DNA of 64,000 nucleotides from Octopus vulgaris (Eukaryota): the NCBI GenBank assembly GCA_951406725.2, contig OX597819.1, positions 98,518,001 through 98,582,000 on the forward strand, read 5' to 3'. Below the pieces are notes generated by a model. That model was not told the DNA's origin. It was given only the letters and a program-made list of their open reading frames with translations, and searched no databases. Both the position numbers and the translations under genes were made by a program. This document shows, one piece after another, positions 1,678 to 62,432 of the stretch; the first letter of the stretch is position 1, and every line of letters starts with the position of its first letter.

Positions 1678-1809
1678 GAGCGTTCCTCATTCCGTTTTTT
1701 ATATTTATGATATTTGCTGCCATCCCGACATTACTGCTTGAAAATGCTGTTGCCCAATTTGCAAATTTAGGGCCAGGAAAAGTATGGGTTATGTGCCCCC
1801 TTTTTAAAG
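1678..1809 (+). CDS. SLC6 copy A exon 2 (TM2): [45 protein letters not shown]
   Basis: taaacag|GA ... AAAG|gtaaat; 132 nt; matches copy B 49785-49916. Confidence 0.95.
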
Positions 1810-4800
1810 GTAAATCTTCATTTTATTATATTGCTGTTACTGTTGTTATCGTTGTTATTTAGACCAAGGACCAACCTAATCGAGTAGATATATAATCAAA
1901 GACACACAAATTACACTTTTTAAGGCGACGGAATATATAATGTATCCTTTTTTTAGACATTAGTGTGCATTTTAAAGGAGACTTGACTGCAATGCCCAGC
2001 AGATCGCTTGACCTTTTTAAAATCTCACGTTTATTGCAATTGCTTGTGGTTGATTAGGATTAGGTCAGTTATAATTAACCAGGCTGTTAATATTCCATTA
2101 TTTTCAGGTATAGTGCATCTTGACATACATTTACTAATGTGTCCATTTTTATTAAAATGGCAGCTTGTGATCTGAAGGTGATTTAATGGCTTATCTCTGT
2201 CTGAACAACATAAATGTTCCTTAATCGGCTGTTGTTGACTGGTGTTTTTGTTCTTTTGTAGGTGTTGGCACTGCAATGGTTATAATAAATGCCCTTATTG
2301 GTATCTACTACAATGTGATCATAGCCTGGGTACTGTACTACCTGTACACTTCCATGCACCCCACACTTGCCTGGAGTACTTGTAATAACACCTGGAATAC
2401 ACATCTTTGCTATGACTCAATTTATTTGATGAAAAATTCTCGAGATAATTCTACGTTAGATACGATGCTAAACACAACGTTGGATGTTAATGTATCTTCA
2501 TCTCTGGCACTGAAGTCATCTGTTGAAGAATACTGGGAGTAAGTTAAATTATTTCTTCTTGGTGTTGGCTGTGTGGTAAGTAGTTTGCTTACCAACCACA
2601 TCGTTCCGGGTTCACACCCACTGCGTGGCACCTTGGGCAAGTGTCTTCTACTACAGCCTCGGGCCGACCAAAGCCTTGTGAGTGGATTTGGTAGACAGAA
2701 ACTGAAAGAAGCCCGTTGTATATATATATGTACGTATCTGTATATGTTTGTGTATCTGTGTTTGTCCCCCCAACATCGCTTGACAACCGATGTTGGTATG
2801 TTTACGTTCCCGTAACTTAGCGGTTCTATGAGACCGAAAGAATAAATACTAGGCTTACAAAGAATGAGTCCTGGGGTTGATTAGCTCGACTAAAGGCGGT
2901 GCTCCAGCATGGCTACAGTCTGGAACTGAGGATCCATGAGTGAATTTCCCCTACAGTTATGTGTTAGTGGTTTAAAGAGTAAACTATGGAATCGCAGTAA
3001 ACTAGTGTTGGTGTGTTTGTTTATTTCTACACATTTTGTAAAGACCTAATCACAAACACTGGCGGGAGCAGGTATGGATGTGTGGTAAGAAACTTGCTTT
3101 CCAACCACATGGTTCTGGGTTCAGTCCTACTGCGTAGCAACGTAGTACCTTGGCTGTCTTCTACTATAGCTTCGAGCCGATCACAAACTTGTGAGTGGAT
3201 TTGGTAGACAGAAACTGACAGAAGTTCACTGTCGTATATATATATATATATATATATATATATATATAATGAATAAAAAGTTTTGAATGATACAACAATG
3301 CACTATAATATAAAAAAATGGACTATATATCTGTTTTAATTTAGTTATCCATGGTCCGATGATATTTCCTTCTTCAGATATTCTTAGATGCGACTCCGTC
3401 TAAGAATATCTGAATAAGTATTGGGGTCGATTTGTTCGACTAAAATCCTTTAAGGTGATGCCCCAGCATGACCGCCGTCCAGTGACTATAATAATTAAAA
3501 GATAAAAGATAACCAATACATAAAAAGTGGTCAGGACCAGCTTCGAAACAATAATCCCAAAGGAACGTTCCTATCTTCAGGTCAAAACCAACACGAGCAC
3601 AAATGGCACAAGCACACATACATCCACCAACCAGAGATCCATTTTCCTTCATATTCCTCAACAAATGAAGAGGGGAAGTGGGGAGGTCAGAACCTAACAA
3701 AACACTGGCACGGAAGGGAAAAAAAAAAAAAAAATACTAGTGACCATTCAGCTCATCATGAAAAAAAGTAAAAACGTAAATGACTAACGAAAAAGATAAG
3801 AAACTAGTCATTTACCAGCATAATTACAAAGAAGAAGAAGAAGAAGAAGAAGAAGAAGAAGAAGAAGAAGAAGAAGAAGAAGAAGAAGAGCAAAAATCCC
3901 CTAAGAAATGTAGAACTGCAAAAGTAACAATAACAGATAAACTTTGACATACGAAATTCCGCTGTTGTAAAAAAAAAAAGCAACAAAGAACTGGGGGTTT
4001 ATATAATACAGAACAAGTACATGCCAAAGAGAGGGCTTTGAGAGATTCGCATTGAGGTCCCCATCAAATAAATGCTTGGCAGTAACGCCAATAAACAGAG
4101 TTTTAAAATCACGCAATACAAAACCAGACTAAAGGCTTGTGGAGGATCCATTCAAAAATCCCCATTTCATGAAGACTGCATTACTTGTCTTTCCACAAGT
4201 CCGAGGTAAGTAACCACACTAAGTCCAGTTTTCACGCCAGAATGGCGATACTCATAATAGGAAGTATAAATGTACATACCCTGGGTTTCCCTTGGAAGAA
4301 GGTCACATTTTCAACTAGATATAGATGTGATATTCATCATCGAGACCAGAATTTCCACAAGGCACATCTTCGCATCCATCTTCGACGACTGCGAGGTGTA
4401 TGGAGCAATTAATCGGCCTTCATCGAGAGCAGGATAATGGAAAGGTTTGAACTTCCTGGAGTTGAACGGTAAGTATAAAAAGTAGGCAATCAAAATGCGA
4501 GGTGATGTACACCACACGAGAAGAGGAGACACTTCCTACAGAGAGAGAACTCATATTTTACGAAGGAGATCCCATATTCTATCAGAAGGAATCAACTTCC
4601 TGATTCCTACCGAGAGAACGAAATGAAATTCACTGCCATTCGCATGACTAATGATGCTCCAATAAGACACGTGTAGAATATATACAAAGAATTTTCGAAC
4701 AAAGTACGGTTTGAAAAGAAAATGGTATCACATACTAAGCAACGTAGAAAAGACTGAATACCAGAAGAAACTTGCCATAGACTTTAGGAAGTGTTATAAT

Positions 4801-62000: not shown

Positions 62001-62432
62001 TCTTGAAATCTTGTTCATTTCAAGTGGGATTTGATATTTGGAGAGATTCTTAGCCATAATAACCTTCAGGCCGTGTCTCTTTTCACGTATTCTCTTTCAC
62101 ACACACTCACACACACTTTCTCCGCTATGGTCACTAATAGAAACCCCGTGGTAAGGTGAGACGTCCACAATCTACACACTTTACTTCCAAGCACTGCTAT
62201 AAGCAACGGAAGTGAGCGAGCAAGTTATAACTTAGTGTACACCAGACCTCTTACATTTAATACGACAATGTGATTAAGTTTTTGTACAAAATCAGTATTT
62301 CTTTTCTGTATTTTGCCAGGTCCAGGGATTGCCTTTATAGTTTACCCAGAAGCACTTTCAACTTTACCCTTTGCTCAGATCTGGGCAGTAATGTTTTTCG
62401 CAATGCTGGTGTTTGTCGGCTTAGACAGTCAG
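46936..62432 (+). CDS. SLC6/NSS transporter, tandem copy B; 3'-partial (coding exons 1-8)
   Basis: Exons 46936-47065, 49785-49916, 51281-51557, 55971-56103, 57729-57863, 60265-60368, 61614-61738, 62320-62432. Exons 2-8 have the same lengths and phases as copy A; the frame is open. Confidence 0.95.
48182..48650 (-). mobile_element. Tc1 transposon 3' fragment with one TIR
   Basis: [14 protein letters not shown]..., [48 protein letters not shown] end. Confidence 0.75.
49112..49290. mobile_element. mariner-derived MITE (related copy about 41670-41843)
   Basis: TIRs GGTGCTGAAAAG.../...CTTTTCAGCACGCCTCG, TA flanks, internal mariner C-terminal remnant. Confidence 0.7.
49785..49916 (+). CDS. SLC6 copy B exon 2: [45 protein letters not shown]
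   Basis: taaacag|GA ... AAAG|gtaaat. Confidence 0.95.
50042..50951. mobile_element. CR1/L2-type LINE, 5'-truncated and 5'-inverted, specific to copy B intron 2
   Basis: minus-strand RT ([29 protein letters not shown]) 50042-50566; plus-strand ORF2 C-terminus ([31 protein letters not shown]) and AATAAAATTAAAATT tail 50567-50951; empty site in copy A about 1930. Confidence 0.85.
51281..51557 (+). CDS. SLC6 copy B exon 3 (TM3/EL2)
   Basis: tttgtag|GT ... GA|gtaagt; [18 protein letters not shown]. Confidence 0.95.
53194..54698 (-). mobile_element. Tc1 (DD34E) transposon with IR/DR-type terminal repeats, specific to copy B intron 3
   Basis: TA flanks; TIR CAC[G/T]GGCGAAAATAAATTTAAGACC; inner IR match 53350-53413 / 54570-54630. 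Confidence 0.92.
53472..54476 (-). pseudogene. Tc1 transposase, disrupted
   Basis: HTH region, FWSDVSRF (D), QQDNSPVH (D), 34 aa to SPDLNPIE (E), ends YGTKY*; in-frame TAG at 53666-53668 and an N-terminal frameshift. Confidence 0.9.
54880..55260 (-). mobile_element. R4/Dong-like LINE fragment (zinc knuckle region)
   Basis: [62 protein letters not shown]. Confidence 0.75.
55971..56103 (+). CDS. SLC6 copy B exon 4
   Basis: tgtag|A ... AAG|gtaagt; ...[13 protein letters not shown]. Confidence 0.95.
57275..57680. mobile_element. foldback/MITE with about 115-bp TIRs and a (TATG)n centre
   Basis: TATGATTGTCACTAAATGTGACTA... / ...TAGTCACATTTAGTGACAATCATA. Confidence 0.85.
57729..57863 (+). CDS. 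SLC6 copy B exon 5
   Basis: gcgcag|GTT ... TCG|gtaagt. Confidence 0.95.
58669..59080 (+). mobile_element. 3' end of an RLE-endonuclease non-LTR retrotransposon (R4/NeSL-like)
   Basis: RPDIMII...IDFVIPGD...EKYQAL...[11 protein letters not shown]...[19 protein letters not shown]. Confidence 0.85.
59135..60228 (+). mobile_element. composite non-autonomous Helitron, specific to copy B intron 5
   Basis: A|TCTATC... 5' end, CTAG|T 3' end; empty site CTAA^TTGAATAT in copy A (12281/12282); extra internal 5' ends about 59743 and 59859. Confidence 0.85.
60265..60368 (+). CDS. SLC6 copy B exon 6: [35 protein letters not shown]
   Basis: tttcaag|GTA ... AG|gtaaaa. Confidence 0.94.
61614..61738 (+). CDS. 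SLC6 copy B exon 7: [42 protein letters not shown]
   Basis: ttacag|A ... AAAG|gtaaat. Confidence 0.95.
62320..62432 (+). CDS. SLC6 copy B exon 8: [38 protein letters not shown]
   Basis: gccag|GT ... CAG|gtaagt. Confidence 0.95.

What the first reader, a model, noticed from the sequence alone, without database searches (positions are those of the whole stretch)
1678..62432. Tandemly duplicated SLC6 transporters with a non-canonical substrate pocket (candidate lineage-specific transporter array)
Seen: two intact paralogs. Mapping residues by eye onto LeuT numbering gives TM1 G-Y-V22-V-G24-L-S26-N27 (copy B), TM6 F253-S-I-G256-V-G-[I/T]259, and TM8 G-L-D-S355-Q-F-A-H359-V-Q (copy A). Established: G24 (vs Asp) marks amino-acid-type NSS, and positions 256/259/359 shape the S1 side-chain pocket (259 = Trp in GlyTs, Phe in DAT/SERT, Leu in GAT1; 359 = Thr or Gly). 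The gates are retained (RETW, R30, Y108, TM10 Asp, SY), so this looks like a working transporter. Inference: Val22, Ser26, a small or beta-branched 259 and a His at 359 match none of the characterised GlyT/GAT/TauT/monoamine pockets I know. The likely automatic label ('glycine transporter-like') may therefore be wrong and the substrate novel, possibly anionic or pH-sensitive given the His.
Basis: partly seen in the sequence, partly recalled or inferred. Interest (0 to 1): 0.75.

Follow-up and report, generated by a model that had tools for sequence, protein, structure and literature searches.

The report
Octopus amino-acid transporter trio, histidine pocket
The window holds most of two of three intact, side-by-side octopus SLC6 transporter genes that databases label 'glycine transporters'; they belong to a mollusc-wide branch for which no assay was found, and their altered pocket likely carries larger, possibly acidic, amino acids with little need for chloride.

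Summary
Real genes, partly mis-framed. There are three intact 13-exon SLC6 copies, not two. A lacks only exon 1 in the window, B runs past its end, and C lies about 51 kb beyond it. A is spliced as modelled in 4 of 4 runs. His359 is not octopus-specific: with Asp286 and Gln361 it marks a mollusc-wide subgroup (46, 50 and 51 of 52 clade rows, against 0, 4 and 3 of 69 outside). Cephalopods also lost the GlyT Trp259. Grouping with vertebrate GlyT2 is rejected (AU p = 8e-5). Best reading: Na+-coupled, weakly Cl-dependent uptake of amino acids larger than glycine. Acidic substrates are plausible, because C. elegans SNF-5 carries Glu/Asp and has a His at the facing position 259 plus Asp286. No substrate is shown. 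B-type sequence appeared only as a mosaic A/B transcript in one run. Verdict: a new variant of a known family, of moderate interest.

The parts
1678..1809 (+). Copy A coding exon 2 (TM2; Phe at the chloride-site Tyr47, codon 1695-1697). Exon 1 lies upstream of the window (-1595 to -1466).
   Evidence: joint to exon 3 seen in 4 of 4 runs
2262..2538 (+). Copy A exon 3 (TM3 with Ile104 and Tyr108; EL2)
7005..7137 (+). Copy A exon 4 (TM4)
10378..10512 (+). Copy A exon 5 (TM5)
12318..12421 (+). Copy A exon 6 (TM6: Phe253, Gly256, Ile259 at 12366-12368)
13351..13475 (+). Copy A exon 7 (TM7: Asp286 at 13376-13378, Ser290)
14120..14232 (+). Copy A exon 8 (EL4 and start of TM8; Asp354, Ser355)
18823..18954 (+). 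Copy A exon 9 (His359 at 18829-18831, Gln361; TM9)
20507..20606 (+). Copy A exon 10 (TM10 with the gate Asp404)
20917..21017 (+). Copy A exon 11 (TM11)
21267..21437 (+). Copy A exon 12 (TM12)
22803..22916 (+). Copy A exon 13 with stop codon; AATAAA hexamers follow at 23094-23204
   Evidence: this exon lay outside the stretch laid
46936..47065 (+). Copy B exon 1 (ATG, RETW, TM1 GYVVGLSN; Tyr21 at 47005-47007)
49785..49916 (+). Copy B exon 2
51281..51557 (+). Copy B exon 3; B-type bases found without mismatch in contigs of run X1
55971..56103 (+). Copy B exon 4
57729..57863 (+). Copy B exon 5
60265..60368 (+). Copy B exon 6 (TM6, Thr259)
61614..61738 (+). Copy B exon 7 (TM7, Asp286)
62320..62432 (+). 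Copy B exon 8; exons 9-13 continue beyond the window (66294-72570), and copy C lies at 115175-143386

Best explanation
The window holds most of two of three intact, tandem octopus SLC6 genes from a mollusc-wide His359/Asp286/Gln361 subgroup of the glycine-transporter-like branch, and they likely work as sodium-driven, only weakly chloride-dependent importers of amino acids larger than glycine, neutral ones and possibly also acidic ones. Shown: gene structure, splicing of A, fold, residues and tree position. Inferred: two Na+ sites drive an alternating-access cycle (Na1, Na2 and gate residues kept). Gly24 and Tyr108 bind an amino-acid carboxylate. Ile/Thr in place of Trp259, with Gly256, widens the side-chain pocket. 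The Asp286 carboxylate with Phe47 stands in for chloride. His359 gives the pocket floor a polar, possibly cationic, face. The copies differ at 21, 253 and 259, so they are predicted to differ in substrate range.
For: Gene models: three 1767-nt reading frames, all 36 introns GT-AG. All 10 introns between A exons 2 and 12 are bridged at the modelled junctions by contigs in 4 of 4 runs from 4 studies. Pfam SNF E 1e-186. The AlphaFold model of the 99.7%-identical O. sinensis orthologue P0006 has pLDDT 90.8, best match GlyT2 at TM-score 0.89. The alignment to human GlyT2 maps Gly27=G210, Tyr104=Y287, Gly283=S479, Ile286=W482, Phe50=Y233, Asp313=N509, His386=T582. Passages of PMC13273173 and PMC8602798: W482L/F lets GlyT2 carry Ala, Leu and Met; S479G admits sarcosine; Y233 and N509 are chloride ligands. 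Passages of PMC8310414: KAAT1 D338 = LeuT N286, proposed to underlie weak chloride dependence. In the published alignment DmNAT1 and SNF-5 have Asp286, Cl-independent human B0AT1 has Phe47, and SNF-5 has His at 259. A passage of PMC6284198 says SNF-5 carries neutral amino acids plus Glu and Asp. Positions 259 and 359 both line the deep pocket (PMC9599917); Glu406 at 359 sets TauT specificity (PMC12339982).
Against: No member of the subgroup has been assayed in anything I found, so every substrate statement is by analogy. 22 of 57 rows with the His/Asp/Gln trio keep Trp259, so His359 may be structural (packing on Trp259) and not a charge for acidic substrates. Five scallop and one mussel paralogue rows lose His359. 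Ser290, Gln250 and Ser254 of the chloride site are kept, and B0AT1 is chloride-independent with Asn286, so the residue rules are loose. The monophyly of the 20 mollusc rows is only moderately supported (92/54). Tissue of expression is unknown. Full-length expression of B and any expression of C were not shown.
Confidence: 0.5

Rival explanations
1. Ordinary small-amino-acid or osmolyte carriers (glycine, sarcosine, proline, alanine), much as the automatic labels say; His359 merely refills the space left by Trp259.
For: Closest solved structures and sequences are GlyT2/GlyT1. Gly256 favours N-methyl or imino substrates. The subgroup nests among invertebrate GlyT-like proteins, most of which keep Trp259 (61 of 69 outside rows).
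Against: His359 predates the loss of Trp259 (both stand together in bivalves), so it is not a simple compensation. In all cephalopod rows 259 is Ile, Val or Thr. Trp259 does not itself guarantee glycine specificity, since ATB0,+ has it and carries 18 amino acids.
Confidence: 0.2
2. Dedicated acidic amino-acid carriers (L-Glu, L-Asp or D-Asp), in which a protonated His359 pairs with the side-chain carboxylate.
For: SNF-5, the one SLC6 reported to carry Glu/Asp in the passages I saw, has His259 and Asp286. The octopus proteins have the mirror arrangement, aliphatic 259 and His359. That the SNF-5 authors tied acidic transport to a pocket histidine is recalled, not read. Abundant D-aspartate in cephalopod nervous tissue is also recalled.
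Against: SNF-5 is broad, not dedicated. Its His is on a different helix, and it belongs to another SLC6 branch. The charge state of His359 is unknown.
Confidence: 0.15
3. Carriers of beta-amino acids or methylamines (taurine, beta-alanine, betaine) for cell-volume control.
For: Bulky residue 22 and a small aliphatic 259 resemble the GABA/taurine group (TauT Phe22/Leu259; GAT2/3 Ile22/Leu259).
Against: They fall outside the GAT/TauT outgroup in the tree. TauT uses an acidic Glu at 359 to hold the amine, the opposite of His. Copy A has no aromatic residue at 21 or 259 to cage a trimethylammonium (inference).
Confidence: 0.1
4. Copy B is a redundant duplicate under relaxed selection that recombines with A, so its special pocket residues (Tyr21, Thr259) carry no new function.
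For: A/B dN/dS is 0.53, against 0.27-0.32 for either versus C. 29 amino-acid changes map to B and 8 to A with O. bimaculoides as outgroup (p = 0.0008). Run X1 shows B-type bases only over codons 82-159, inside an otherwise A-type transcript. No B orthologue is among the O. sinensis or O. bimaculoides proteins returned.
Against: B keeps an open frame and all splice sites despite dS 0.074. The excess of changes fits neofunctionalisation equally well.
Confidence: 0.35

Closest known systems
Vertebrate SLC6 amino-acid branch I (GlyT2/SLC6A5, GlyT1/SLC6A9, PROT/SLC6A7, ATB0,+/SLC6A14)
   Same: Top sequence and fold matches (43% identity, TM-score 0.89 to GlyT2); Gly24, Tyr108, Na2 and gate residues kept.
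   Different: Not orthologous to GlyT2 (AU p = 8e-5). 259 is Ile/Thr, not Trp/Phe; 359 is His, not Thr/Leu/Phe/Ser; 286 is Asp, 47 Phe, 26 Ser/Thr, 22 Val, 361 Gln.
C. elegans SNF-5 (system B0,-)
   Same: A pocket histidine together with Asp286 and Leu21 (as in copy A); reported to carry neutral and acidic amino acids.
   Different: Its His is at 259 (TM6), with Leu at 359; here His is at 359 (TM8). SNF-5 is described as closest to the nutrient (NAT) transporters, so any likeness would be convergent.
Insect nutrient amino-acid transporters (KAAT1, CAATCH1, DmNAT1)
   Same: Asp at 286, linked to K+ acceptance and weak chloride dependence; non-aromatic 259 in DmNAT1; diversification by lineage-specific duplication.
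   Different: Different SLC6 branch: TM8 is GLDSQF here against GIGSIV in DmNAT1. KAAT1/DmNAT1 have no His359 in what I saw (DmNAT1 Leu; KAAT1 not checked).
Expanded scallop SLC6 'glycine transporter-like' genes
   Same: Many scallop rows fall in the same His/Asp/Gln subgroup; SLC6 expansion in scallops is already noted (passage of PMC8150855).
   Different: Independent expansions. Most bivalve orthologues keep Trp259, Gly26 and Tyr47. I found no assay and no description of the signature.

Membership tests
SLC6 / neurotransmitter:sodium symporter | Full-length SNF domain and 12-helix LeuT fold | tested here: met
   PF00209 positions 1-522 of 524, E 1e-186 and 7e-183 for the orthologues of A and C; model and Foldseek matches
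SLC6 / neurotransmitter:sodium symporter | Na1/Na2 ligands and gates (Gly20, Val23, Asn27, Ser254, Asp354, Ser355; Arg5-Trp8, Arg30-Asp404, Tyr108, Tyr268) | tested here: met
   All kept in A, B and C; Asn286 is Asp; C has Leu at gate residue 253
SLC6 / neurotransmitter:sodium symporter | Na+-dependent transport | not testable with these tools
   needs an uptake or voltage-clamp assay
GlyT2 (SLC6A5) orthologues, the database label | One clade with vertebrate GlyT2 | tested here: not met
   AU test on 50 rows: log-likelihood 166 lower, p = 8.1e-5; only fish GlyT2 rows were in the tree
GlyT2 (SLC6A5) orthologues, the database label | Trp482 and Ser479 closing the pocket to glycine | tested here: not met
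   Ile/Thr and Gly at these columns
GlyT2 (SLC6A5) orthologues, the database label | Canonical chloride site (Tyr233, Gln473, Ser477, Asn509, Ser513) | tested here: not met
   Tyr to Phe and Asn to Asp in all three copies; the other three kept
Amino-acid branch I in the wide sense (with invertebrate GlyT-like proteins) | Falls with GlyT2/ATB0,+ and invertebrate GlyT-like rows, apart from GAT/TauT rows | tested here: met
   46-row group at 97/97; no NAT/B0AT or monoamine rows were in the tree
Mollusc His359/Asp286/Gln361 subgroup (defined here) | The three residues together | tested here: met
   Present in A, B and C; 57 of 225 rows have the trio, and the named ones are all molluscs
Mollusc His359/Asp286/Gln361 subgroup (defined here) | Monophyly | tested here: inconclusive
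   FastTree 0.998 and 0.983, but IQ-TREE 92/54; the cephalopod (100/100), gastropod (100/99) and octopod (100/100) parts are firm
GABA/taurine/creatine transporters | Clade membership; acidic, Cys, Thr or Gly at 359 | tested here: not met
   Outside the GAT/TauT rows; His at 359
System B0,- (SNF-5-like) | His at 259 | tested here: not met
   SNF-5 has His259/Leu359; here Ile or Thr259/His359
System B0,- (SNF-5-like) | Transport of Glu/Asp | not testable with these tools
   needs an assay

The most novel reading that the evidence does not exclude
Molluscs evolved, inside the glycine-transporter branch, a chloride-independent carrier family that convergently acquired the toolkit of insect and nematode nutrient transporters (Asp286 and a pocket His). 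Cephalopods then opened the pocket by dropping Trp259, giving an SLC6 that takes up acidic amino acids, possibly D-aspartate, through a His on TM8 that mirrors the TM6 His of SNF-5. The octopod trio splits this job among pocket variants.
Probability: 0.2. Interest if true: 0.7.

Novelty: new variant of a known kind. Interest (0 to 1): 0.4.

Why it matters
The genes are in public protein sets under 'glycine', 'proline', 'GABA', 'taurine' or 'creatine transporter-like' names, and mollusc transcriptome papers reason from such names (PMC8150855 does so for a scallop gene). A simple signature (His359, Asp286, Gln361) picks out one mollusc-wide subgroup with natural variants at the positions that mutagenesis shows to set substrate size (259), side-chain chemistry (359) and chloride need (47, 286). 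That gives a ready test series: bivalve Trp259, cuttlefish Val259, octopus Ile/Thr259. If acidic transport holds, it would be a second, independent route to Glu/Asp uptake in SLC6 and a candidate for molluscan amino-acid absorption. If not, it is an ordinary tandem array in a family known to expand in molluscs.

Tried and rejected
Lineage-specific His pocket: rejected, His359 is in 68 of 225 rows across molluscs and some non-molluscs. Pseudogene: rejected for all three frames. B as an uncollapsed allele of A: judged unlikely, since introns are only 80-96% alike, dS is 0.074 and B has its own Tc1 insertion, while A is 99.7% identical to its O. sinensis orthologue; not formally excluded. No run holding the stretch is on record as RNA; the spliced joints are what show transcription. 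No B-type contig over B exon 1 in X1, X5 or X8, and none over B exon 3 in X5, X8 or the unlabelled run X19 (76% read): a hole, not evidence. Four runs with the same species label held next to none of the words, also no evidence. Further His-subgroup genes in the genome: searches with exons 9 and 7 gave three strong matches each (6 matches of 12 candidates; 8 of 24), the next at 35-49% identity; counts are lower bounds. The 1.84-billion-protein search never ran, so breadth outside molluscs rests on two word-based searches. Domoic-acid uptake as a function: the mussel carrier is Na+-independent and chloride-dependent (PMC8310042 passages), which does not fit. The SLC6 hit in PMC13669787 is labelled SLC6A19 and was not linked to these genes. 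Ten paper searches showed no assay or description of this subgroup in their listings; most subscription journals are not searched. Metzler et al. 2013 and Forrest et al. 2007 were not held. Docking and pocket geometry were not possible because model coordinates are not returned. Three look-ups of earlier scan findings returned nothing.
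Full report
What is there. The window lies on G000:C6 in a microsatellite-rich, intron-containing genome. Exon 3 of copy B matches at 100% a protein that the database labels Octopus vulgaris (P0001). 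A self-comparison shows collinear blocks 80-92% alike between 1.5-16.5 kb and 49.6-64 kb. With 200 kb of flanking DNA, tblastn and splice-site fitting give three complete genes on the + strand, each with 13 coding exons, a 1767-nt frame, 588 residues and GT-AG at all 36 introns. A spans -1595 to 22916, B 46936 to 72570 and C 115175 to 143386 in window coordinates. An isolated copy of the last exon lies near 95376. A and B are 92% identical as proteins, and C is 75-78% identical to them. Searches of the genome with exons 1, 9 and 7 each rank these three loci far above other SLC6 genes (28 matches of 33 candidates for exon 1).

Expression. Contigs of 4 of 4 laid runs, from 4 studies, bridge all 10 introns between A exons 2 and 12 at the modelled junctions. 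The runs are only guessed to be RNA and carry no tissue label, but exact exon joins show splicing. For B exons 1-4, only run X1 gave B-type contigs: two pieces without mismatch that cover all 17 B-specific bases of exon 3. They are flanked by A-type sequence in exons 2 and 4. I read this as a mosaic A/B transcript, which suggests gene conversion or unequal crossing-over (inference). Full-length B and copy C were not shown to be expressed.

Residues. The alignment to human GlyT2 and numbering in passages of PMC13273173, PMC9599917, PMC12339982 and PMC8310414 fix the equivalences. In LeuT numbers, A/B/C have 21 Leu/Tyr/Met, 22 Val, 24 Gly, 26 Ser/Ser/Thr, 47 Phe, 253 Phe/Phe/Leu, 256 Gly, 259 Ile/Thr/Thr, 286 Asp, 359 His and 361 Gln. 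The published SLC6 alignment in the supplement of PMC6590891 (parts 1, 2, 3, 5 and 6 of 6 read) shows no His359 or Ser26 in the characterised human, fly or worm transporters of those parts.

Where they belong. Of 128 rows went into a first tree (7 exon-skipped, partial or fused models dropped). The octopus genes fall in a 52-row group of chiton, gastropod, bivalve and cephalopod proteins. It has His359 in 46, Asp286 in 50 and Gln361 in 51 rows, against 0, 4 and 3 of the 69 rows outside; rows include near-identical orthologues. A second search widened the set to 225 rows: 68 have His359 and 57 have all three residues. His359 without the full trio also occurs in three decapod rows, one nemertean row and a second scallop group. 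In an IQ-TREE analysis of 50 hand-picked rows, the cephalopod and octopod groups have 100/100 support and the 20 mollusc rows 92/54. Forcing the cephalopod proteins together with fish GlyT2 is rejected (p = 8.1e-5). So the pocket histidine is old and mollusc-wide. Loss of Trp259, Gly26 and Tyr47 together is seen in the cephalopod rows, including Sepia. The array is octopod-level: A and C orthologues exist in O. sinensis and O. bimaculoides, one relative in Argonauta, and no B orthologue was returned.

Copy B. A/B dS is 0.074 and dN/dS 0.53. Changes fall mostly on B (29 against 8, 26 against 11 and 27 against 11 with three outgroups; p = 0.0008, 0.02 and 0.014). This fits relaxed selection or a new function.

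How it most likely works. Shown: an intact LeuT-fold protein (P0006 model, pLDDT 90.8, best match GlyT2 at TM-score 0.89) with sodium sites and gates kept. From established work: replacing Trp482 in GlyT2 admits Ala, Leu and Met, and Ser479Gly admits sarcosine. Asp at 286 in KAAT1 affects cation coupling and is proposed to cause weak chloride dependence. Chloride-independent human B0AT1 has Phe at 47. Position 359 tunes specificity in TauT and LeuT. Inferred: Na+-coupled, weakly chloride-dependent uptake of amino acids larger than glycine. SNF-5 carries neutral amino acids plus Glu and Asp (passage), and in the alignment it has His at 259 and Asp at 286. The octopus proteins place His at the neighbouring pocket position 359. 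That the SNF-5 paper attributes acidic transport to its histidine is recalled; the paper was not held. Against an acidic role: 22 of the 57 trio rows keep Trp259, six clade rows lose the His, and its charge is unknown.

Papers seen: passages only of PMC13669787, PMC8310414, PMC9599917, PMC8150855, PMC13273173, PMC8602798, PMC9564218, PMC12339982, PMC8310042, PMC6284198 and PMC4676043; passages plus five of six parts of one supplement of PMC6590891 (its S1 figure of binding-site residues was not held as text); all others as search listings. Supplements of scallop SLC-family papers, which I did not see, could already delimit this subgroup.

Verdict. It is a new variant of a known family with a sharp, cheap test; interest 0.4.

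Noticed in passing
window 53192-54700: Tc1/mariner element in intron 3 of copy B only: inverted ends at 53192-53239 and 54653-54700 and a 234-codon open stretch on the - strand (53666-54370) with a Tc3 transposase HTH domain (E 1e-18).
   Followed up: partly
window 14957-16517 and 62505-64000: A decayed retroelement-like stretch (broken RNase H/integrase-like frames, recognised by eye only) in intron 8 of both A and B, 90% alike, so it predates the duplication.
   Followed up: no
P0001 versus window coordinates 68115-68650 (L003): The public protein for copy B (521 aa) skips exons 10 and 11 (TM10-TM11), although both are intact in the genome; the model is probably mis-annotated.
   Followed up: yes
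window coordinates 95244-96202 (L006): Orphan copy of the last exon and 3' flank, 94-95% like A and B, with splice acceptor and stop kept and one codon fewer; a relic of a further partial duplicate or an alternative end for B.
   Followed up: partly
window 38860-41378: 93-94% match to DNA 14-16.6 kb upstream of copy A (L001), so the duplicated unit includes long upstream sequence.
   Followed up: no
window 2301 and 20572: A-type contigs in some runs carry the B-type base at these sites (X1 and X5 at 2301; X8 and X13 at 20572), again hinting at exchange between A and B.
   Followed up: partly
window 32500-33590: G+C-richer 66-bp minisatellite array between copies A and B.
   Followed up: no
G000:C12:80576058-80722346: Four SLC6 exon-1 matches on the - strand within 150 kb: a second tandem SLC6 array in this genome.
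   Followed up: no
P0205, P0206, P0218, P0250 (scallops); P0217, P0219, P0221 (decapods); P0204 (nemertean): His359 without Asp286 recurs in other invertebrate GlyT-like groups, suggesting repeated origin or an older one.
   Followed up: partly
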